From a virus (Duplodnaviria > Heunggongvirae > Uroviricota > Caudoviricetes), in the IMG/VR virus record IMGVR_UViG_2711768010_000018: a DNA stretch of 46,353 nt. The stretch is one strand, 5' to 3'. Shown here piece by piece: positions 11,759 to 26,644 of this stretch (positions within the stretch are counted from its first letter, which is position 1; each line of letters begins with the position of its first letter). A model generated the notes under the pieces. That model saw only the letters and a list, made by a program, of their open reading frames with translations. It was not told the DNA's origin and did not search any database. Both the position numbers and the translations under genes were made by a program.

Positions 11759-11915
11759 ACGTTACTAGATCAAAGAGCATTAGTTCATATGTAAATTGAC
11801 ATTTTTCTGGCACAGGGGAGAGCTAGCGTGGTTGTCCGCTTTGTGCCAATAGCGGACATTGCTGGCTCATGGTATGTTAGTTTAAGGAGGCAGGTTATGC
11901 CCTGTATTTCGCTGT

Positions 11916-11924
11916 GGTATAATA
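11916..11924 (+). promoter_or_regulatory. Extended -10 promoter element TGgTATAAT upstream of the cargo operon
   Basis: Exact TGGTATAAT at 11916-11924, about 30 bp upstream of the AAGGGAG RBS (11941-11947) and GTG at 11957; compositional shift to AT-rich DNA begins here. Confidence 0.45.
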
Positions 11925-11956
11925 GTTGCGCAATTGATACAAGGGAGCGTTACATC

Positions 11957-12919
11957 GTGAAAATTGTTTTCGAGGTTAATGGAAAGAAAGTTCCACTAAA
12001 ATCTTTAAAATACATAAGCAAAAAAGATCAACTCGAAGTAATGAAAAACTGGTTCTTTGAAAACTTTGAAGATCCGGCAAATGCTTGTCCGTATGAAAGT
12101 AGAGAAGGTGGCTATGCTTACATATATGGCGGGCCGTATGATGCGAGCGAAGAACTACAATCCATCTTCGGTCAATATGTTAAATCTGAGTATATTGAGG
12201 AATTAGTAGATGAATTACAAACACAATGTTTTGACTGGTCTGGAAACTCAAATAATATAGATGATTGGTACGATGATGATATCTACGACGCTGTAACGTC
12301 TTCCGGTAATCCGTATTTAAAATTCATTGATAATATCGATAAAATAAAAAAACTTGCAAAAGATAAAACTGAACAACAGCAAAAAAACCACTTGCTTAGT
12401 TTGCTCTACACGAATGTTATTACAGCTTTGGAAACGCTTTATGTTGAGCTATTCATTAATTCTATAGAGAAAGATGATGTCTACATAGCCAATTGTATAG
12501 AAAAAGGTAAGACTGAATTTAAAGTAAGCAAAGATATTGCTGCGTTGCCTTTCAAGGGTGAACCCATCGAGAAAATTAGGGGAGAGCTAATCAGGTCAAT
12601 CAAGGAACACTTGATCAGTGCAAGCTGGCATAGCACTAAAAAGGTAATCGACCGCTATGAAGCTACATTCGATATAAAAGTACAAAAAGACTGTCCGATA
12701 GAAGCTATTGAATTGGCAACCCTCAATCGAAATCACTTAGTGCATCGTGGTGGAAAGGATAAAGAAGGGAACCTCGTAGTGATTACAGACCAGGATCTTG
12801 AAACGCTGATTGAAAATGCATCGAACCTGGCAATTATGCTCTACAACAGTTTAAATGTAGCAACGAATAAAACCACCATTTTGCAACCAGATGACAAACC
12901 GTTCATTCATGAATTTTAA
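11957..12919 (+). CDS. Cargo protein A: unknown N-terminal region with a C-terminal HEPN-like Rx4H motif (NRNHLVHRGG); about 320 aa from GTG 11957 (alternative starts ATG 11897 or GTG 11828)
   Basis: AT-rich ORF (track 11828..12919); RBS AAGGGAG 9 nt before the in-frame GTG at 11957; the R-x4-H motif in a helical C-terminal half is typical of HEPN RNase domains. No family recognised with certainty. Confidence 0.6.
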   Translation: MKIVFEVNGKKVPLKSLKYISKKDQLEVMKNWFFENFEDPANACPYESREGGYAYIYGGPYDASEELQSIFGQYVKSEYIEELVDELQTQCFDWSGNSNNIDDWYDDDIYDAVTSSGNPYLKFIDNIDKIKKLAKDKTEQQQKNHLLSLLYTNVITALETLYVELFINSIEKDDVYIANCIEKGKTEFKVSKDIAALPFKGEPIEKIRGELIRSIKEHLISASWHSTKKVIDRYEATFDIKVQKDCPIEAIELATLNRNHLVHRGGKDKEGNLVVITDQDLETLIENASNLAIMLYNSLNVATNKTTILQPDDKPFIHEF

Positions 12920-12934
12920 TAGCGCAGGTCATAC

Positions 12935-13936
12935 ATGGATATTCGCACACGAAAGACAAAATTTTTAGAGTCGTTAGATTCAACTGAAGTGATACGCAAA
13001 GCAGTAAGTCTCGCTATAGATTGCATTATTGATAATCATAATAGTAATGAAGATACCCCCTTAGTTATTACCAGCTATGATGATCTCTGTAGAATCCAGG
13101 TGCTAAATTATGTACAGGAGTTTTGCGAAGCTGCATTCCCTGATATGGATGAATATTACTTTAGTCCTAACATACTTCGCATCAACGGCAAGACTAGTGA
13201 AGAAGCTTGTATTAACTTAATTAAACTCTTAAGAAGTACAAAAGGCATGCTATTCTGGTCCGATGCCCCATCGTGGTTCGCTAGCCTCCCCGACGGATTA
13301 TTCCATGTTGTTAACATTGATCAAAAAATCGTTACTCGCGGCCTTAATAAGAAAAACTCTAAGCCGACAATAATCAATAAAGATTACAGTGTAGATACAC
13401 TACTATCAGAGCTATTTTTGAATGGCGCACACATGGAGCAACCCAACGTACACAACGTTTCTGAGGGAAACATGAAGTTCTATGATGAATGCCATGCTGG
13501 ATTAATCAGACCAATACCCGCTCCAATAGGCGCGTCATACGATGAAGAGATCACAATTAATTCTCCAGATTGGCAAAAGCTCGCGTGTGTAGCTTTACGC
13601 CGCTATCAGTCGAAGGAATGTCATGACGGAATGCAATGGGATACAACCGATCATGGTTGGACTGATGTAATCGCGTATCCATTCGTCGAAGAAATACAAT
13701 CAATGGATAATAGTGGTTATCGACAATGTTTAGTTGGGCTGGTCACAATAAACAATTCAAATGCAAATTCTCCGTACCTATCTACCGTTTGGATACATCC
13801 ATTTTATCGCAGGAGAGGGTTATTAAGTAAGTTATGGCCAAAATTACAAGAGTTATATGGAAGTAACTTCGAAATTGAGCGACCTAATGAAAATATGAAA
13901 GCATTTCTGAAAAGTGCGAAACACGCAGATTACTAA
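12935..13936 (+). CDS. Cargo protein B: 333 aa with a C-terminal GNAT-like acetyltransferase signature (VWIHPFYRRRGLLSKLW)
   Basis: ATG at 12935 is 15 nt after the stop of protein A (same strand, likely operon); AT-rich; the C-terminal 120 aa resemble GNAT motif A (R-x-x-G-x-G/A-like) plus downstream motif; N-terminal 200 aa unrecognised. Confidence 0.65.
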   Translation: MDIRTRKTKFLESLDSTEVIRKAVSLAIDCIIDNHNSNEDTPLVITSYDDLCRIQVLNYVQEFCEAAFPDMDEYYFSPNILRINGKTSEEACINLIKLLRSTKGMLFWSDAPSWFASLPDGLFHVVNIDQKIVTRGLNKKNSKPTIINKDYSVDTLLSELFLNGAHMEQPNVHNVSEGNMKFYDECHAGLIRPIPAPIGASYDEEITINSPDWQKLACVALRRYQSKECHDGMQWDTTDHGWTDVIAYPFVEEIQSMDNSGYRQCLVGLVTINNSNANSPYLSTVWIHPFYRRRGLLSKLWPKLQELYGSNFEIERPNENMKAFLKSAKHADY

Positions 13937-16308: not shown

Positions 16309-16598
16309 TGGTGAATTTACGTAAAGCGGCTAAAGGCCAGATGTGCCAGATCAGAATCCCTGGCTACTGCAATCACAATCCCGAAACCTCTGTGCTGGCG
16401 CATTACAGGCTGGCGGGGACGTGCGGAACAGCGACAAAACCACATGATATGCAGGCGGCGATAGCCTGTAGCTCATGCCACGATCTAATCGACGGGCGGG
16501 TAAAAACCAGCGATTACACCAAAGAAGAATTGCGCCTGATGCATGCTGAAGGGGTTTTTCGCACACAAGAAATCTGGAGAAAGAAAGGTCATTTATGA
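16308..16598 (+). CDS. YbcO-like (DUF1364) putative zinc-binding nuclease, 96 aa
   Basis: Sequence MVNLRKAAKGQMCQIRIPGYCNHNPETSVLAHYRL...CSSCHD closely resembles DLP12 YbcO as I recall it; conserved Cys/His cluster. Confidence 0.7.
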   Translation: MVNLRKAAKGQMCQIRIPGYCNHNPETSVLAHYRLAGTCGTATKPHDMQAAIACSSCHDLIDGRVKTSDYTKEELRLMHAEGVFRTQEIWRKKGHL

Positions 16599-17137
16599 TT
16601 TACCCAACGAATACAGGAAAAAGCGGAGAACACCTTCGCCTCACCACGCTGGAAAGTGTCTGGATTCAGGGAAAACTACGTATGTGGGGGCGCTGGTCGT
16701 ATATTGGCGGTGGCAGGTCAGGGAATATGTTCAATCAGTTGTTGGCATCCAAAAAACTGACGAAAACAGCCATTAATGAAGCCCTGCGCAGAATGAAAAA
16801 AGCGGGAATAGAGAAAGCTGAGCTGGAAGCGTTTTTGCGAGAGATGATCAACGGCAAGCAAAAGAGCTGGCTGGCGCATTGTACTGATGCAGAGGCGTTA
16901 TGTATTGATCGAGTCATAAGTGAGGTGCTGGCAGAGCATCCAGGATTGATTTGCATTCTCCGGCAACGCTATGAAGGGCGGGGGATGACTAAGCGCAAAA
17001 TGGCTGAATTGCTAAATGATGCACACCCAGAGTGGTGTTTTAGCACATGCGAAAAACGGATTGCTAATTGGTTAGCTGTTGCTGAGTATGCCCTATATAT
17101 TCCCATGCGTGAATCATTTGCTGAGAAAATGGCTTGA
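16595..17137 (+). CDS. Putative late-gene antiterminator Q (Cys-pair zinc-finger-like), 180 aa
   Basis: Last gene before the lysis region; overlapping start with the upstream gene; Cys pairs (HCTDAEALC and EWCFSTCEKR). Assignment is by position; the sequence is not recognised with certainty. Confidence 0.45.
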   Translation: MIYPTNTGKSGEHLRLTTLESVWIQGKLRMWGRWSYIGGGRSGNMFNQLLASKKLTKTAINEALRRMKKAGIEKAELEAFLREMINGKQKSWLAHCTDAEALCIDRVISEVLAEHPGLICILRQRYEGRGMTKRKMAELLNDAHPEWCFSTCEKRIANWLAVAEYALYIPMRESFAEKMA

Positions 17138-22226: not shown

Positions 22227-22363
22227 TATATGGCTGATTTATAATTGTGAGTTTAATATTATGTTGACTCACTCATTGATCCAATACCTAACTTTACCAG
22301 CAACACCTCCGCCCCCAGTAGCACTGGCTGCTGGGGTGCGTTTTATTCATAAAGCAAGGCTGT

Positions 22364-23152
22364 ATGAGCGAGAAATTAAAGATAGTCTATCGCCCATTAC
22401 AAGAATTGTCACCGTATGCGCACAACGCCAGGACGCACAGTACTGAGCAGGTGGCACAACTGGTAGAAAGTATTAAGCAATTCGGCTGGACTAATCCGGT
22501 GCTGATTGACGAAAAGGGCGAAATTATTGCGGGTCACGGTCGTGTTATGGCGGCTGAAATGCTCAAAATGGATTCTGTTCCGGTCATTGTTCTGTCTGGC
22601 CTGACGGATGAGCAGAAAAAGGCGTACCGCCTGGCAGATAATCGCCTGCCGATGAATGCTGGCTGGGATGAAGATCTGTTGCGGATGGAGCTGTCGGACC
22701 TAATCAATGCTGATTTTGATGTCTCCCTGACAGGCTTCATCCCGGCAGAAATTGATGAACTGTTGACGGATGTTTTGCCCGGTACAGGAAATGAGGAGGA
22801 GCCGTATACGACGAAAATTGATACGCCTGTTTATGAGCCGTCAGGCGGTAAACCGGATATCAGTGAACTGTACGACGATACGAAAACTCAGGAGCTGATC
22901 AGCCGGATACGTTCGGCGTCCCTTGATCCTGATATTGAGAAATTCCTCCTGTGTGCAGCAGAACGTCACACGGTGTTTAATTTCAGCAGAATTGCGGACT
23001 ATTACGCTCATGCCCCCGCTGAAATTCAGTGCCTTTTCGAGGAGTCGGCGCTGGTGATCATTGATTATCAGCAGGCTATTGAAAATGGATTTGTCCGAAT
23101 GACGCAGCGCATGGTGGAGATCATGCATGGCGGGGAGGAGGAATATGCGTGA
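22364..23152 (+). CDS. ParB-like nuclease domain protein, 262 aa
   Basis: N-terminal ParB/Srx-like motif (...NPVLIDEKGEIIAGHGRVMAA...) upstream of the terminase genes, a position commonly occupied by ParB-N proteins in siphophages. Confidence 0.7.
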   Translation: MSEKLKIVYRPLQELSPYAHNARTHSTEQVAQLVESIKQFGWTNPVLIDEKGEIIAGHGRVMAAEMLKMDSVPVIVLSGLTDEQKKAYRLADNRLPMNAGWDEDLLRMELSDLINADFDVSLTGFIPAEIDELLTDVLPGTGNEEEPYTTKIDTPVYEPSGGKPDISELYDDTKTQELISRIRSASLDPDIEKFLLCAAERHTVFNFSRIADYYAHAPAEIQCLFEESALVIIDYQQAIENGFVRMTQRMVEIMHGGEEEYA

Positions 23153-24077
23153 TGATTTTTGCGCCTTTATTCTGACTCACGGGCGACCGGACAAAGTTCT
23201 GACTTACCGGACGTTGCGTCGTGCTGGCTATACCGGGAAAATTTTTATCGTTGTTGATGATGAAGATAAGACACGGCATCAGTACATGGCTGAATTTGGT
23301 GAACAGGTGCTGGTATTTTCCAAAGCCGATATTGCTAGTCGTTTTGACGAAGCCGATAATTTTAGTGACCGCCGCTCAATTTTTTACGCCCGTAATGCCT
23401 GTTTCGACCAGGCAAAACTGGTCGGGTGTAAATACTTCATTCAGCTCGATGATGATTATCACGAGTTCCAGTTTCGGGTGGATCGCAACTATGACCAGGC
23501 CTATTTCCCGATAAGGAAACTGGATGAGATCCTTTCTGAAATGCTTGCGTACTACGAATCAATACCTGCTCTTTCCATCGCTATGTCGCAGGGCGGGGAT
23601 TTTCTTGGTGACAATGGCGGCCATGCTTCGTGGGTGAAACGCAAGGCAATGAACAGCTTTATCTGTTCGGTTGATCGACCGTTCTCATTCATGGGGCGCA
23701 TTAACGAGGATGTGAATACGTACACGAATCTCGGTCGCTGTGGTGAATTGTTTATGACGATCGGTGCTGTCCAGTTAGGGCAGAAACAGACGCAGAAAAA
23801 CAGCGGCGGAATGACCGAGCTGTATCTGGATTCCGGAACCTACGTTAAAAGTTTTTACTCCGTCATGTATGCGCCGTCGTGCGTAAAAATCTCACTTATG
23901 GGTGCCAGTCATAAACGCATTCACCATCAGGTCACCTGGAACAACGCTGCAGTAAAAATCCTTCACGAAAAATACAGGAAGAAGACACCCTGCATATCAA
24001 TGGGGGTGACAAATGATTCCGTATTCGAAAGTCGAGTCTCTGGCAGCGTGCCGGATGACTGCACAACAAATCGCTGA
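23145..24077 (+). CDS. Hypothetical protein, 310 aa, with acidic DxD-like motifs (possible GT-A-like fold, uncertain)
   Basis: ORF track 23127..24077; the ATG at 23145 is preceded by GGAGGAGG and overlaps the ParB-like stop; motifs VVDDEDK and QLDDDY; function not recognised. Confidence 0.5.
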   Translation: MRDDFCAFILTHGRPDKVLTYRTLRRAGYTGKIFIVVDDEDKTRHQYMAEFGEQVLVFSKADIASRFDEADNFSDRRSIFYARNACFDQAKLVGCKYFIQLDDDYHEFQFRVDRNYDQAYFPIRKLDEILSEMLAYYESIPALSIAMSQGGDFLGDNGGHASWVKRKAMNSFICSVDRPFSFMGRINEDVNTYTNLGRCGELFMTIGAVQLGQKQTQKNSGGMTELYLDSGTYVKSFYSVMYAPSCVKISLMGASHKRIHHQVTWNNAAVKILHEKYRKKTPCISMGVTNDSVFESRVSGSVPDDCTTNR

Positions 24078-24264
24078 CGTTCTGGATGTTGATCTGAACC
24101 GACTGAAAGAAAATCGGGAAGCAATGACAGATTTTTATGCGGCCATCCGTAAGGGCAGAGCGAAAGGTGAAGCCGAGTTACGAGCGGCATTGTTTAAGCT
24201 TGCCAGAAAAGGGGATGCCTTTGCTCTGCGCGAACTACTCAGGGTGGATAAAAATCAGGACTAA
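24052..24264 (+). CDS. Small putative HTH protein, about 70 aa
   Basis: ORF track 24013..24264 with internal Met MTAQQIADVLD...; immediately upstream of the terminase small subunit. Confidence 0.4.
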   Translation, partial: RMTAQQIADVLDVDLNRLKENREAMTDFYAAIRKGRAKGEAELRAALFKLARKGDAFALRELLRVDKNQD

Positions 24265-24267
24265 CTG

Positions 24268-25362
24268 ATGAGCAGACCGGACTGGGGGGCGTTGCAGCAG
24301 GAGTATATTGCTGAATACACCCGCTCCGGTATATCTCCGGTGGCATGGTGTGAAGCAAGGGGACTGAATTACGCAACAGCCCGTCGTTACATCAAAAAAA
24401 CTCCGAAAAATGCGCAGACAGAAATGTGCAAAACTGCGCAAAAAAGTGCGCAGAAAAAATCTGCGCAGACTGCACAAAAGCGGAACGAAAAATCTCAGGA
24501 AAAAAAGCCAGTATTCGATGCGGGCCTGAATGAGGGCGACGCGGAGGAATTTTCGTTCTGTCCCGATGAATTCGGCATTTCTGACCAGCAGGCTAAGTTT
24601 GCGATGCTTGTTGCTCAGGGTAAAAAGCCGACAGAGGCGTACCGACTAGCCGGTTATGAGGGGCAAGGTGCGACAGCTAACAGCAACGCCAGTCGTATGC
24701 TTAGAAATGCCAGGGTTTTTCGCGCTATCAGCTACTTCCGCAATCAGTACCAGAAACGCTATACCGCAGACCTGGATTTACTAGTGAGTCAGTTGATGGC
24801 TATTGTCCTGGCCGACCCCAATCAGCTTGCACAATTTCGCCGTGTTAACTGCCGTTATTGCTGGGGCGAGAATCATCTCTACCAGTGGCGCGATATAGCA
24901 GAATTCGACAAGGCAGCGGCGCAGGCTTCCAGAGATGGCAAACCCGAACCGGAATATGGAGGCCTCGGCTTTGTTGATAACGCCATACCCAATCCGGACT
25001 GCCCGAAGTGCTGCGGTGAGGGAACGGGACAGCTTTATATGGCTGATACCACTCTGCTTGATGGGGATGCGCGGCAATTATATGCAGGGGCAAAATTCGG
25101 AAAATTCGGCGTTGAGATCCTGCTGGAGGATAAGGCTGCCGCCCGGCGTGAATTGTTGCGTTTGTTTTCTGCTGGCGGGGCTTTATGTGCAGATAAGCGG
25201 CTACGGGAACTGGAAATTGAACGGCGCAGAATGGAAAACCAGAAGCTGCGCAAAGAGATCGAAACGGTGGAAGATAATGAACATCCCCAGCCTGTGGCGA
25301 TCAATATTAATGTGGTTGATGCCAGAGTAAGGAGTGATGAAGATGATCTCTCCGACGCTTAA
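24268..25362 (+). CDS. Terminase small subunit (N-terminal HTH, central Terminase_2-like region), 364 aa
   Basis: Position directly upstream of the large terminase; region ...FGISDQQAKFAMLVAQGKKPTEAYRLAGYEG... resembles small-terminase DNA-binding domains; contains the TGCGCA repeat cluster. Confidence 0.65.
   Translation: MSRPDWGALQQEYIAEYTRSGISPVAWCEARGLNYATARRYIKKTPKNAQTEMCKTAQKSAQKKSAQTAQKRNEKSQEKKPVFDAGLNEGDAEEFSFCPDEFGISDQQAKFAMLVAQGKKPTEAYRLAGYEGQGATANSNASRMLRNARVFRAISYFRNQYQKRYTADLDLLVSQLMAIVLADPNQLAQFRRVNCRYCWGENHLYQWRDIAEFDKAAAQASRDGKPEPEYGGLGFVDNAIPNPDCPKCCGEGTGQLYMADTTLLDGDARQLYAGAKFGKFGVEILLEDKAAARRELLRLFSAGGALCADKRLRELEIERRRMENQKLRKEIETVEDNEHPQPVAININVVDARVRSDEDDLSDA
24411..24476 (+). 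repeat. Cluster of TGCGCA(G) hexamer repeats inside the small terminase gene
   Basis: TGCGCAG at 24411, 24447 and 24463, TGCGCA at 24435, variants TGTGCA at 24426 and TGCACA at 24471, spaced 8-16 bp. Confidence 0.6.
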
Positions 25363-26644
25363 TGTGCCTCAGGCGCGATTTCTTTCAATGCCCCATAAAT
25401 TTAAAGCCTATATTGCTGGTTTTGGCTCGGGCAAAACATGGGTTGGGTGTGGCGGCATATGCAAGGGGATTTGGGAGCATCCAGGTATAAATCAGGGATA
25501 TTTTGCGCCAACGTATCCCCAAATTCGCGATATTTTTTACCCTACAGTGGAAGAAGTTGCTGCTGACTGGGGATTGAACGTAAAAATTAATGAGGGAAAT
25601 AAAGAGGTTCACTTTTATTACGGACGCCAGTATCGGGGAACCACTATCTGCAGATCGATGGAGAAGCCACAAACGATCGTCGGTTTCAAAATTGGTAATG
25701 CGTTGGTGGATGAACTGGACATTTTGCCGAAGGAAAAAGCCAGAACGGCGTGGCGCAAGATAATTGCACGTATGCGTTATAAGATTGATGGACTTCGCAA
25801 CGGTATTGACGTTACAACCACGCCGGAAGGATTCAAATTTGTCTACGAGCAGTTTGTTAAAGCCGTGCGTGAAAAAACAGAGCTGGCCTCACTGTATGGT
25901 CTGGTGCAGGCATCTACTTTCGATAATGAAAAGAACCTGCCAGCAGATTACATTCCTTCGCTTCTTGAATCATACCCTCCAGAGCTGATTAAAGCCTATC
26001 TTCGAGGACAGTTTACTAACCTGACAAGTGGTACTGTTTACCATCAGTTTGACCGGAAACTGAATAATTGCGAAGAAGTGGAGCAGCCAGGGGAGCCGAT
26101 TTATATTGGGATGGATTTTAACGTTGGAAAGATGGCGGGAATCGTCCATGTGCTGCGTTTGGGGCTTCCATGTGCGGTAACTGAAATCATCAATGCCTAC
26201 GATACGCCGGATATGATCCGCATCATTAAAGAACGCTTCTGGCTGTATGATGGGAATGATTACCGGAAAGTGAGGGAAATTTATATTTATCCAGATGCTT
26301 CCGGGGATTCCAGAAAATCAAGTAACGCAAGTACGACGGATATAGCCCAGCTTAAGCAGGCTGGTTTTAACGTTGTGGTGAACAGCTCGAACCCGCCAGT
26401 AAAAGATCGCGTTAACTCAATGAATGCAATGTTCTGCAATGCCAATGGTGAGCGTCGCTATAAAGTTAATGTGAAGCGTTGCCCGTTATATGCCGAATCT
26501 CTGGAGCAACAGGTCTGGGATGAGAAGGGGGAGCCTGATAAAAAATCTGGCAATGATCACCCGAATGATGCCGGAGGTTATTTCATCGTTAAGCAATTCC
26601 CTATTGTCAAACCGACCGGAAGAGTCACATCACTTCGGATTTAA
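25343..26644 (+). CDS. Terminase large subunit (ATPase/nuclease), about 433 aa
   Basis: Walker A-like GFGSGKTWVG near the N-terminus; ORF track 25334..26644 starts at GTG, the ATG at 25343 follows a TAAGGAG RBS. Confidence 0.88.
   Translation: MISPTLNVPQARFLSMPHKFKAYIAGFGSGKTWVGCGGICKGIWEHPGINQGYFAPTYPQIRDIFYPTVEEVAADWGLNVKINEGNKEVHFYYGRQYRGTTICRSMEKPQTIVGFKIGNALVDELDILPKEKARTAWRKIIARMRYKIDGLRNGIDVTTTPEGFKFVYEQFVKAVREKTELASLYGLVQASTFDNEKNLPADYIPSLLESYPPELIKAYLRGQFTNLTSGTVYHQFDRKLNNCEEVEQPGEPIYIGMDFNVGKMAGIVHVLRLGLPCAVTEIINAYDTPDMIRIIKERFWLYDGNDYRKVREIYIYPDASGDSRKSSNASTTDIAQLKQAGFNVVVNSSNPPVKDRVNSMNAMFCNANGERRYKVNVKRCPLYAESLEQQVWDEKGEPDKKSGNDHPNDAGGYFIVKQFPIVKPTGRVTSLRI

What the first reader, a model, noticed from the sequence alone, without database searches (positions are those of the whole stretch)
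22364..24077. ParB-like nuclease gene coupled to an unrecognised 310 aa protein upstream of the terminase
The ParB-N gene and the downstream gene overlap (ATG 23145 inside the ParB stop region) and so are probably co-translated. The second protein has DxD-type acidic motifs (VVDDEDK, QLDDDY) that could indicate a nucleotide-sugar or metal-dependent transferase, raising the possibility of a DNA-modification or packaging-associated function. I recall only remnants of these genes in K-12 Rac.
Basis: inference. Interest (0 to 1): 0.4.

Follow-up and report, generated by a model that had tools for sequence, protein, structure and literature searches.

The report
ParB-partnered phage glycosyltransferase cassette
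Two overlapping late genes of a Rac-like E. coli prophage encode a sugar-transferring enzyme of the family that phages use to glycosylate their DNA and a ParB-like partner that nearly always accompanies it, but the phage makes none of the modified bases such enzymes normally decorate, so its target is unknown.

Summary
ORF 22364-23152 (262 aa) is a ParB-like protein. ORF 23145-24077 (310 aa) starts 8 nt before its stop (ATGCGTGA), just upstream of terS/terL in a Rac-like lambdoid prophage.

The ParB protein has three parts:
- An NTP-binding-type ParB N-domain, up to 55% identical to the N-domains of phage ParB-adenine-methyltransferase fusions, which occupy the same slot before the terminase.
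- A disordered but near-invariant Y-[T/S]-x-K-x3-P-x-Y-E-P motif.
- An undescribed helical C-domain.

The pair is a conserved cassette in viruses and prophages of more than 12 bacterial phyla and in a haloarchaeal virus. The C-domain gene lay upstream of the transferase in 76 of 77 evaluable genome loci. The transferase lay downstream in 80 of 80 reverse-search loci. The stop/start overlap was kept in 89 of 93 junctions.

Neither this prophage nor the 31.8-kb phage c5 encodes a hydroxymethyl-pyrimidine pathway.

Best reading (about 0.45): a late, ParB-assisted DNA glycosylation module with an unknown acceptor. Glycosylation of the partner protein is the main rival.

The parts
22313..22346 (+). 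Terminator-like GC-rich hairpin plus T-run between the trkG stop (22226) and the ParB start. It probably insulates the cassette from the trkG moron, so the cassette would be read only by antiterminated late transcription (inference).
   Evidence: 10-bp stem with 7 GC pairs, tail TGCGTTTTAT; a Q-like antiterminator at 16595-17137
22364..23152 (+). Gene for the ParB-like partner protein (262 aa; full-length form of K-12 ynaK). Strongly acidic: pI 4.5, net charge about -24.
22364..22771 (+). ParB/Srx N-terminal, NTP-binding-type domain (residues 1-136). Box II reads GHGR (G57, R60) and box III reads DN (D92, N93). There is no HTH DNA-binding domain.
   Evidence: Pfam ParB_N 8.7e-7; alignment to Noc/ParB GERR and EN boxes; Foldseek hits to Noc/ParB/KorB/PadC at E about 1e-6; R60 in 155 of 171 and N93 in 168 of 172 partner ORFs; PADLOC MTase_II N-domain 1.5e-38; 55% identity to ParB-MTase fusions
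22805..22855 (+). Conserved linear motif Y148-T149-x-K151-x3-P155-x-Y157-E-P-x-G-x2-P164, inside a predicted disordered acidic linker (residues 137-170).
   Evidence: pLDDT below 50 for residues 137-170; Y148, P155 and Y157 in 180 of 180 and T/S149 in 179 of 180 distinct partner ORFs; retained in stand-alone C-domain proteins
22874..23149 (+). Helical C-terminal domain (residues about 171-262) with invariant R201, A211, Y214, D234 and A238. It has no Pfam or PDB match and is the part that always accompanies the glycosyltransferase.
   Evidence: conservation; no known family or structure; 1195 representative proteins, nearly all with the domain at the C-terminus of 250-300-aa ParB_N proteins or as stand-alone proteins; stand-alone versions directly upstream of TAGT
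23134..23152 (+). Coupling junction: Shine-Dalgarno GGAGGAGG (23134-23141), ATG (23145-23147) and the ParB stop TGA (23150-23152), giving an 8-nt overlap.
   Evidence: conserved in 89 of 93 junctions
23145..24077 (+). Gene for the GT-A-fold glycosyltransferase of the TAGT family (310 aa). Residues 281-310 are an E. coli-specific, non-conserved tail.
23256..23267 (+). This is the position of the nucleotide/ribose-binding acidic residue in GT-A enzymes.
   Evidence: strand 32-38 in the model; D38 and D41 invariant; functional role inferred from the GT-A fold
23448..23456 (+).
   Evidence: strand 97-102; invariant; fits the R...DDD...ED motif described for phage GT-A DNA glycosyltransferases (bioRxiv 10.1101/2023.12.21.572611), together with R14 and N187-E188-D189 (nt 23703-23711)
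24055..24264 (+). Context: a small terS-like HTH protein (phrog_309). It overlaps the non-conserved tail of the glycosyltransferase.
24268..26644 (+). Context: terminase small subunit (24268-25362) and large subunit (25334-26644).
   Evidence: Terminase_2; Terminase_6N/6C

Best explanation
The two genes form one functional unit expressed at the start of the late (packaging) operon. Gene 2 encodes the catalytic subunit. It is a GT-A, DxD-dependent nucleotide-sugar transferase of the TET-associated glycosyltransferase (TAGT) family. Gene 1 encodes its obligate partner, whose undescribed C-terminal domain and Y-[T/S]-x-K-x3-P-x-Y-E-P motif bind or activate the transferase. The partner's N-terminal ParB-type NTP-binding domain is the same module that phages fuse to DNA adenine methyltransferases and that activates a phage DNA thymine dioxygenase. 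In this reading it gates or targets the enzyme on replicated double-stranded phage DNA. The 8-nt stop/start overlap couples translation of the two genes, which would favour co-production of the subunits. The proposed output is post-replicative glycosylation of progeny phage DNA just before packaging, protecting it from nucleases in the next host. This makes the cassette the sugar-adding counterpart of the ParB-methyltransferase fusions found in the same slot. Shown here: the family and fold of both proteins, the obligate pairing, the conserved overlap, the shared slot and shared ParB module, and the absence of a hydroxymethyl-base pathway. Inferred: physical interaction of the two proteins, late expression, DNA as the acceptor, and an anti-restriction role. 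The acceptor atom and the donor sugar are unknown.
For: - Transferase identity: Pfam TAGT 3.7e-34, GT-A fold, and invariant R14, DDD102-104 and NED187-189.
- Characterised phage members of PF20691 and of the GT-A DNA glycosyltransferases act on DNA (PMC13216743; bioRxiv 10.1101/2023.12.21.572611).
- Obligate pairing: the ParB N+C gene lies directly upstream in 82 of 84 close loci and 66 of 78 diverse viral loci; most of the other 12 diverse loci are contig-end truncations or have a C-domain-only gene.
- Pairing in genomes: the C-domain is upstream in 76 of 77 evaluable genome loci from more than 12 phyla.
- Reverse search: TAGT is downstream in 80 of 80 loci.
- The same arrangement is found in Lactobacillus, Nocardia, Porphyromonas and Haloarcula viruses.
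- The overlap is kept in 89 of 93 junctions.
- The ParB N-domain is up to 55% identical to the N-domains of phage adenine-MTase fusions. Two fusions examined lie directly upstream of terS-like, terL and portal genes.
- NTP-site residues are largely conserved: G57 in 171 of 171 and R60 in 155 of 171.
- Precedent: a ParB-like activator without an HTH is required by a phage DNA T-dioxygenase on dsDNA (PMC13229309). ParB was earlier hypothesised to direct modification enzymes during packaging (cited in PMC8256090).
- In Vibrio jumbo phage pv27 the C-domain protein and TAGT sit between exonuclease and helicase genes.
- Four loci carry a histidine-phosphatase + cytidylyltransferase gene inside the cassette, which fits NDP-sugar donor supply.
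Against: - No known DNA glycosyltransferase acts on canonical bases.
- This prophage and the complete 31.8-kb phage c5 genome encode no TET/JBP dioxygenase, no ThyS-like hydroxymethylase and no alpha- or beta-glucosyltransferase.
- No such genes appear among the top neighbour clusters of 85 diverse loci.
- The partner is very acidic (pI about 4.45, net charge about -25) and lacks an HTH, so DNA binding is not evident.
- The subfamily has no significant direct similarity to the only classical characterised member, T6 Ggt.
- A eukaryotic TAGT-domain protein, GREB1, glycosylates a protein rather than DNA (PMC7968844).
- In the held literature I found no report of modified DNA in any cassette-bearing phage.
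Confidence: 0.45

Rival explanations
1. Protein glycosylation. The transferase glycosylates its own partner at the conserved hydroxyl residues of the linker motif (Y148, T/S149, Y157), or glycosylates another phage or host protein. The glycosylated acidic ParB-like protein would be the functional product, for example a DNA mimic, a packaging factor or an injected protein.
For: - The most conserved feature of the partner is a predicted disordered motif with two invariant tyrosines and a Thr/Ser-only position (T 159, S 20, N 1). That pattern is typical of a functional hydroxyl.
- The motif is kept even when the ParB N-domain is absent.
- The TAGT domain of human GREB1 O-GlcNAcylates Thr/Ser of a protein (PMC7968844).
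- There is no DNA acceptor source, and the partner is strongly acidic.
Against: - A conserved linear motif can equally be a docking peptide.
- The ParB N-domain clade is otherwise attached to DNA methyltransferases.
- All characterised phage TAGT and GT-A relatives modify DNA.
- The replication-module context in a jumbo phage points to DNA.
Confidence: 0.2
2. Packaging accessory. The ParB-like protein acts as a nuclease or as a pac/cos-recognition helper for the terminase. The glycosyltransferase would have an unrelated or regulatory role.
For: - The cassette sits immediately before terS/terL in most loci, and right next to cos in phage c5.
- ParB_N proteins are often annotated as nucleases.
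Against: - The downstream terminases belong to unrelated types (Terminase_3/6N, T7-type and others) and to both cos and pac phages.
- In HHTV-2 terL lies about 3 kb downstream of the cassette, and in pv27 the pair lies in the replication module.
- In at least a dozen of the roughly 240 loci examined the ParB N-domain is missing while the C-domain and GT remain.
- This reading does not explain an obligate, catalytically intact GT partner.
Confidence: 0.1
3. Counter-defence or host manipulation through a non-DNA, non-partner acceptor. Candidates are a nucleotide-derived immune signal, tRNA, or an envelope precursor.
For: - The ParB/Srx fold also serves as an NTP-using enzyme module (SerK and sulfiredoxin hits; PMC12704722).
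- The GT-A fold is shared with nucleotidyltransferases.
- About 65% of phage GT contigs lack a recognisable DNA-modification pathway nearby.
Against: - The late-operon position is atypical for counter-defence genes (inference).
- The same cassette occurs in hosts with completely different envelopes, including archaea, which argues against an envelope target.
- There is no positive evidence for any particular small-molecule acceptor.
Confidence: 0.1
4. It is what the PHROG name says: a beta-glucosyl-HMC-alpha-glucosyltransferase that adds a second glucose to glucosyl-hydroxymethylcytosine, as in phages T2 and T6.
For: It falls in the same remote-homology PHROG (phrog_842) as T6 Ggt, and the T6 enzyme is assigned to the same Pfam family in PMC13216743.
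Against: - The prophage has no dCMP hydroxymethylase and no alpha- or beta-glucosyltransferase; in T6 these genes flank ggt.
- Direct comparison with T6 Ggt is not significant (hhalign probability 0.1; hmmsearch E 0.13).
- T6 Ggt has no ParB or C-domain partner gene next to it.
Confidence: 0.03
5. A plasmid-type ParB partition protein with an unrelated neighbouring gene.
For: Phage records annotate gene 1 as a 'chromosome (plasmid) partitioning protein', and there is a Pfam ParB_N hit.
Against: - It scores below the cutoff of the canonical ParB model (TIGR00180, 38 against 58 bits).
- It has no HTH or canonical dimerisation domain.
- No ParA is annotated in the prophage.
- The element is an integrated lambdoid prophage.
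- The pairing with the GT is near-universal.
Confidence: 0.02

Closest known systems
Phage GT-A DNA glycosyltransferases of Pfam PF20691 (TAGT): T2/T6 beta-glucosyl-HMC-alpha-glucosyltransferase and the 5mYOX-associated GTs (Pyle et al., Cell Rep 2024 / bioRxiv 10.1101/2023.12.21.572611; PMC13216743)
   Same: It matches the same Pfam family and PHROG, has a GT-A fold, and carries the R...DDD...ED active-site pattern. It is phage-encoded.
   Different: There is no hydroxymethyl-pyrimidine source and no primary alpha- or beta-GT in the genome. Direct similarity to T6 Ggt is not significant. It has an obligate C-domain/ParB partner gene with a conserved stop/start overlap. It lies in the late packaging slot of small temperate siphoviruses. 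It corresponds to the 'solitary TAGT' class whose function PMC13216743 calls undefined.
ParB-dependent phage thymine dioxygenases (5mYOX176 with ParB176; PMC13229309, PNAS 2026)
   Same: A DNA-modification-family enzyme is encoded next to a ParB-like protein that has the NTP-binding N-domain and a C-terminal domain but no HTH DNA-binding domain. In that system the ParB is a cognate-specific activator needed on dsDNA.
   Different: The effector here is a glycosyltransferase, not an Fe/2OG dioxygenase. The C-terminal domain here is a distinct, undescribed domain preceded by an invariant linear motif. In some loci the ParB N-domain is dispensable while the C-domain is not. Dependence has not been tested experimentally here.
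Phage ParB_N-DNA methyltransferase fusions (phrog_498, PADLOC MTase_II; surveyed in PMC12704722)
   Same: The ParB N-domains are closely related (up to 55% identity; 1.5e-38 to the MTase_II profile). In the two fusions examined the position is the same, immediately upstream of the terS-like, terL and portal genes.
   Different: The methyltransferase domain is replaced by the C-domain plus a separate, translationally coupled glycosyltransferase. The chemistry and acceptor are therefore different and unknown.
GREB1 (human TAGT-domain protein; O-GlcNAc transferase of ER-alpha, PMC7968844)
   Same: It shares the TAGT domain, which is the source of PGAP's product name 'GREB1-related protein'.
   Different: GREB1 is a large eukaryotic multidomain protein acting on a protein substrate. 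The relationship is at domain-family level only and was not compared directly here.
DpdA/DpdB 7-deazaguanine DNA modification system, in which DpdB is a ParB-like ATPase (from my own knowledge, not checked here)
   Same: A ParB-like NTPase is required by a separate enzyme that modifies DNA bases.
   Different: The effector (a transglycosylase that exchanges guanine) is unrelated, and it works as a bacterial defence island rather than a phage late gene.

Membership tests
Pfam PF20691 TET-associated glycosyltransferase (TAGT) | Sequence match above the family's curated threshold | tested here: met
   118.9 bits against a cutoff of 27.5, E 3.7e-34, residues 8-222. All 120 listed homologues also carry PF20691.
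Pfam PF20691 TET-associated glycosyltransferase (TAGT) | GT-A fold with a DxD motif and the R...DDD...ED active-site pattern | tested here: met
Pfam PF20691 TET-associated glycosyltransferase (TAGT) | Genomic association with a TET/JBP (5mYOX) dioxygenase or another hydroxymethyl-pyrimidine source (the association that named the family) | tested here: not met
   The prophage has none (PGAP annotation; Pfam scan of the unnamed early genes). Complete phage c5 has none. None appears among the top neighbour clusters of 85 loci.
Pfam PF20691 TET-associated glycosyltransferase (TAGT) | Transfer of a sugar to a modified base in DNA | not testable with these tools
   This needs nucleoside mass spectrometry or an in-vitro assay.
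T2/T6 beta-glucosyl-HMC-alpha-glucosyltransferase (Ggt) | Significant direct sequence similarity to T6 Ggt | tested here: not met
   hhalign probability 0.1 and hmmsearch E 0.13. The only link is shared membership of the remote-homology group phrog_842. The profile used was shallow (Neff 2), so a very distant relationship is not excluded.
T2/T6 beta-glucosyl-HMC-alpha-glucosyltransferase (Ggt) | Co-occurrence with dCMP hydroxymethylase and an alpha- or beta-glucosyltransferase that make the glucosyl-hmC substrate | tested here: not met
   These genes flank ggt in T6 and are absent from this prophage.
ParB/Srx N-terminal domain superfamily (PF02195) | Sequence and fold of the ParB N-domain, with the box II arginine and box III asparagine | tested here: met
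   Pfam 29.3 bits against a cutoff of 26.3. Foldseek hits to Noc, ParB, KorB and PadC at E about 1e-6. GHGR aligns with GERR and DN with EN. R60 is present in 155 of 171 and N93 in 168 of 172 partner ORFs. The box II glutamate needed for CTP hydrolysis in canonical ParB is His here.
Canonical chromosome/plasmid-partition ParB (TIGR00180) | HTH DNA-binding domain, C-terminal dimerisation domain, and a ParA partner with parS | tested here: not met
   TIGR00180 scores 38.1 bits against a cutoff of 58.45, and only over residues 11-94. No PDB or Pfam match lies beyond residue about 95. No ParA is annotated in the prophage. parS was not searched for.
ParB-like activators of phage DNA-modifying enzymes (as in PMC13229309) | ParB NTP-binding domain plus a C-terminal domain, no HTH, encoded next to its cognate enzyme | tested here: met
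   Architecture. Adjacency.
ParB-like activators of phage DNA-modifying enzymes (as in PMC13229309) | The enzyme's activity depends on the ParB protein | not testable with these tools
   This needs co-expression or in-vitro reconstitution. Obligate co-occurrence and the conserved overlap are only indirect support.
ParB_N-DNA methyltransferase fusions (phrog_498 / PADLOC MTase_II) | ParB N-domain of this clade | tested here: met
   phrog_498 6.1e-51 over residues 3-141. PADLOC MTase_II 1.5e-38 over residues 10-144. Up to 55% identity to annotated adenine methyltransferases. My parbN HMM hits the fusions at about 1e-45.
ParB_N-DNA methyltransferase fusions (phrog_498 / PADLOC MTase_II) | A fused SAM-dependent methyltransferase domain | tested here: not met
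   The matches stop at residue about 144, and the remainder is the undescribed C-domain.

The most novel reading that the evidence does not exclude
The cassette installs a previously unknown DNA modification: a sugar (or sugar-like group from an NDP donor) placed post-replicatively and probably sparsely or sequence-specifically on a canonical base or the backbone, with no hydroxymethyl-pyrimidine intermediate. A ParB-type NTP-binding partner would gate this through a new adaptor domain. If so, such a modification would be carried by prophages in a sixth to a third of complete E. coli genomes and in viruses of many bacterial phyla and of haloarchaea.
Probability: 0.25. Interest if true: 0.85.

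Novelty: new variant of a known kind. Interest (0 to 1): 0.58.

Why it matters
Phage DNA glycosylation is known only as decoration of hydroxymethyl- or hydroxy-pyrimidines made by dedicated enzymes. Here a member of that glycosyltransferase family is locked to a ParB-like partner in small temperate phages that cannot make those bases.

Either outcome would be new. If the pair glycosylates DNA by a new route, it affects restriction and defence evasion, sequencing artefacts and enzyme tools. If instead a 'DNA glycosyltransferase' family also carries out a conserved protein glycosylation, that is new as well.

It also gives the newly described 'ParB as activator of DNA-modifying enzymes' idea a second, very widespread and genetically tractable case in E. 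coli. It defines a new conserved domain and linear motif. It assigns a likely role to the 'solitary TAGT' genes reported in 288 of 753 TAGT-encoding phage genomes. It explains what the K-12 pseudogene remnant ynaK once was.

Tried and rejected
- **T6 comparison.** A profile-profile comparison of my 45-sequence TAGT alignment with T6 Ggt and an hmmsearch gave nothing significant. The profile is shallow, so this only shows distance.
- **AlphaFold database.** The afdb50 fold library was not available, so similarity to trypanosome JGT or GREB1 models could not be checked.
- **Iyer et al. 2013.** The paper that defined TAGT and the ParB association is not held. I cite it only through later papers.
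- **Literature.** Searches for ynaK, for 'glucosyl-HMC' with ParB, for LL-Ku with ParB, and for other ParB with glycosyltransferase combinations found no experimental study of this cassette. One early search was wasted on too loose a query.
- **C-domain identity.** Pfam at E up to 5 and a PDB profile search found only the ParB_N part of the full-length members.
- **Rosetta-stone fusions.** I looked for the C-domain fused to a GT or another enzyme. None was found; the longer proteins contain only ParB_N.
- **Defence systems.** PADLOC gave no hit for the GT, and NCBIfam gave none for the GT.
- **Complex prediction.** The monomer models are only moderately confident (pLDDT 70.8 and 66.6). The C-half of the GT and the C-domain fold should not be over-read.
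- **Rejected readings.** A partition ParB, T6-type second-glucose transferase, and O-antigen seroconversion. The last is rejected because the Pfam/PHROG scans gave no Gtr-family hit and the cassette occurs in archaeal and Gram-positive viruses.
Full report
**Observation.** The window is a Rac-like lambdoid prophage of E. coli: recET, kilR, sieB, ydaSTUV-like genes, a Q-like antiterminator, lysis genes, the trkG moron, then packaging, head and tail genes.
- ORF 22364-23152 (262 aa) and ORF 23145-24077 (310 aa) are both on the + strand.
- The second ATG (23145) lies 8 nt inside the first gene (ATGCGTGA, stop at 23150-23152), behind a GGAGGAGG Shine-Dalgarno run.
- Homologues start at the same MRDDF, so 23145 rather than the upstream ATG at 23127 is the start.
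- TerS and TerL follow.
- The 2.1-kb region occurs in 1610 of 5426 complete E. coli genomes, and at 80% coverage or more in 867. It is also present in ten sequenced phages.
- In K-12 Rac only an 87-aa stub of the first gene (ynaK) remains. The second gene and the packaging/head genes are deleted, and ydaY is a tail-region gene, not this one.

**Gene 2.** It is a recognised family.
- Pfam PF20691 'TET-associated glycosyltransferase' scores E 3.7e-34 and 118.9 bits against a cutoff of 27.5.
- phrog_842 scores 7.5e-104, and PGAP's product name is 'GREB1-related protein'.
- An AlphaFold2 model (mean pLDDT 70.8; above 90 over most of residues 1-150) has a GT-A fold.
DDED 38-41 follows strand 2, and DDD 102-104 is the DxD at the end of strand 4. 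Both are invariant.
- R14, QxGD 149-152, RKxMN 166-170, NEDV 187-190 and RxxH 258-261 are also invariant. This fits the R...DDD...ED pattern reported for phage GT-A DNA glycosyltransferases.
- The last 30 residues are E. coli-specific and overlap the next ORF.

**Gene 1.** It has three parts.
- *N-domain (residues 1-136).* This is a ParB/Srx N-domain (Pfam; Foldseek to Noc, ParB, KorB and PadC at about 1e-6). It aligns to the CTP-binding boxes: GHGR against GERR, and DN against EN. Among 182 distinct partner ORFs, the box II Gly is present in 171 of 171 and the Arg in 155 of 171.
- *What the N-domain lacks.* It fails the canonical ParB model (TIGR00180, 38 against 58 bits) and has no HTH.
- *Closest relatives outside the cassette.* These are the N-terminal domains of phage DNA adenine methyltransferases: PADLOC MTase_II 1.5e-38, phrog_498 6e-51, and up to 55% identity.
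- *Linker (residues 137-170).* It is predicted disordered yet holds the most conserved feature of the protein, Y148-[T/S]149-x-K-x3-P155-x-Y157-E-P-x-G-x2-P164. Y148, P155 and Y157 are present in 180 of 180 ORFs, and T/S149 in 179 of 180.
- *C-domain (residues about 171-262).* It is helical, with R201, Y214 and D234 invariant in 182 of 182 ORFs. It has no Pfam or PDB relative. An exhaustive phmmer search found it in 1195 representative proteins, nearly always at the C-terminus of 250-300-aa ParB_N proteins or as a stand-alone protein of 130-190 aa.
- *Charge.* The whole protein is strongly acidic (pI about 4.45, net charge about -25), while the transferase is mildly basic.

**The pair is a conserved cassette.**
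- *Isolated viruses.* ParB partner, overlapping GT and terminase are found in Lactobacillus phages phi jlb1 and c5 (next to cos), Nocardia phage NTR1 and a Porphyromonas phage. The pair is also found in the haloarchaeal virus HHTV-2. GT identity to the E. coli protein is 40-47% in most of these and 27% in the Porphyromonas phage.
- *IMG/VR loci.* The partner gene is directly upstream in 82 of 84 close loci and 66 of 78 diverse loci. The other 12 diverse loci are mostly contig-end truncations. Four diverse loci, plus one from the close set, have a stand-alone C-domain gene without ParB-N.
- *Reverse search.* Searching with the partner recovered 80 loci, all with the GT downstream.
- *Cellular genomes.* In 80 loci from more than 12 bacterial phyla, including candidate-phyla-radiation (CPR) lineages, the C-domain was upstream in 76 of 77 evaluable cases.
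- *Overlap.* The stop/start overlap is kept in 89 of 93 distinct junctions. Translational coupling is therefore a family trait.
- *Conclusion.* The minimal unit is C-domain protein plus GT. ParB-N is usual but dispensable.

**Context.**
- *Downstream genes.* Across diverse loci these are a small HTH/terS-like gene, then TerL of unrelated types (Terminase_3/6N, T7-type and others), then portal. The cassette is therefore tied to the start of the late module, not to one particular terminase.
- *Same slot as ParB-MTase fusions.* Two ParB-N-methyltransferase fusions that I examined occupy exactly this slot.
- *Jumbo phage.* In Vibrio phage pv27 the C-domain protein and GT lie between exonuclease and helicase genes.
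- *Inserted donor gene.* In four loci a histidine-phosphatase + cytidylyltransferase (TagD/RfaE-II-like) gene is inserted between the two genes. This fits supply of an NDP-activated donor.
- *In the window.* A terminator-like hairpin (22313-22336) separates trkG from the cassette.

**What does not fit the textbook.**
- Characterised TAGT and GT-A phage enzymes add sugars to 5-hydroxymethyl-cytosine or to its glucoside.
- This prophage has no TET/JBP dioxygenase, no ThyS-like hydroxymethylase and no alpha- or beta-GT. Nor does the complete 31.8-kb genome of phage c5.
- No such gene is among the common neighbours in 85 loci.
- The subfamily is also far from T6 Ggt, although both fall in phrog_842.
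- A 2026 survey noted 'solitary' TAGT homologues in 288 of 753 phage genomes with undefined function. This cassette is evidently a large part of that class.

**Mechanism.**
- I favour (about 0.45) a late-expressed, two-subunit DNA-glycosylating module.
- In this reading the GT is the catalyst, the motif and C-domain are the adaptor/activator, and ParB-N is an NTP-dependent gate or targeting module. This parallels the ParB-dependent phage thymine dioxygenase (PMC13229309) and the ParB-MTase fusions.
- It also matches the older hypothesis that ParB directs modification enzymes during packaging.
- The steps shown and the steps inferred are listed under the best explanation.
- The main rival (about 0.2) is protein glycosylation, with the partner's invariant Tyr and Thr/Ser motif as the acceptor. 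GREB1's TAGT domain is a protein O-GlcNAc transferase.
- Weaker rivals are a packaging-accessory role and a small-molecule target. The T6-type and partition-ParB readings are contradicted by gene content.

**Novelty.**
- Both protein families and the general ParB/modification-enzyme association are known.
- In the held literature I found no description of three things: the obligate ParB-C-domain/GT cassette with its new domain and motif; its independence from any hydroxymethyl-base pathway; and its equivalence in position and in ParB module to ParB-MTase fusions. I found no experimental study of the cassette either.
- I therefore rate it a new variant of a known kind. There is a real chance (about 0.25) that it hides a new DNA modification chemistry.

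**Limits.**
- No complex prediction was possible.
- The monomer models are only moderately confident in the GT C-half and the partner C-domain.
- Gene calling in the metagenomic loci was crude (stop-to-stop ORFs plus HMMs).
- Iyer et al. 2013 and the AlphaFold database library were unavailable.

Noticed in passing
window 22364-23152 (L001 20165-20422 and the unannotated stretch up to 20945): In genomes 100% identical to the window, RefSeq/PGAP annotates the intact 262-aa ParB-partner ORF only as a 258-nt 'ynaK' pseudogene 'missing C-terminus'. The likely cause is that the reference YnaK is the 87-aa K-12 remnant. About 520 nt of coding sequence, including the whole conserved C-domain, is left unannotated.
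   Followed up: partly
window 11828-12919 and 12935-13936: Two adjacent hypothetical genes (363 and 333 aa) lie in the nin-like region of the prophage. They have only sub-threshold hints (HEPN/RES N-terminal domain 2e-4; GNAT 9e-4) and no NCBIfam or PADLOC hit. They may be a cargo or defence pair.
   Followed up: partly
window 22313-22346: A strong terminator-like hairpin (10-bp stem, 7 GC pairs, T-rich tail) lies between the trkG moron and the ParB start. It suggests that trkG is a self-contained insertion into the late operon.
   Followed up: no
window 23985-24077 and 24013/24055-24264: The E. coli glycosyltransferase has a non-conserved 30-aa C-terminal tail; homologues end near residue 285-290. 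The tail overlaps the next ORF, a small terS-like HTH protein (phrog_309). That ORF precedes a second, 364-aa TerS (Terminase_2), so there are two terS-like genes in tandem.
   Followed up: partly
L195 4739-5732; also L207, L226, L234: In four metagenomic viral contigs a gene of about 320 aa sits between the ParB partner and the glycosyltransferase. It fuses a histidine phosphatase (His_Phos_1, 6e-36) to a cytidylyltransferase-like domain (similar to TagD and RfaE domain II). It is probably a dedicated NDP-sugar or NDP-alditol donor enzyme.
   Followed up: partly
L248 4459-5888 (Vibrio phage pv27, 191 kb): A jumbo Vibrio phage carries the minimal pair inside its replication module, between exonuclease and helicase genes. 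The pair is a stand-alone 139-aa C-domain protein with the YTRKIEIPIYEP motif, followed by the glycosyltransferase. It is not next to the terminase.
   Followed up: partly
L245 4477-5790; L246 4501-5667: ParB-N-adenine-methyltransferase fusion genes, with an N-domain up to 55% identical to the window's, lie immediately upstream of the terS-like, terL and portal genes in an uncultured phage and in Streptococcus phage Javan488. This is the same slot as the cassette.
   Followed up: yes
L003 5196-6858 (Haloarcula hispanica tailed virus 2): An archaeal tailed virus carries the same two-gene cassette with an 11-nt overlap. Identity to the E. coli proteins is 40-41%, which is unusually high for genes shared between bacterial and archaeal viruses.
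   Followed up: partly
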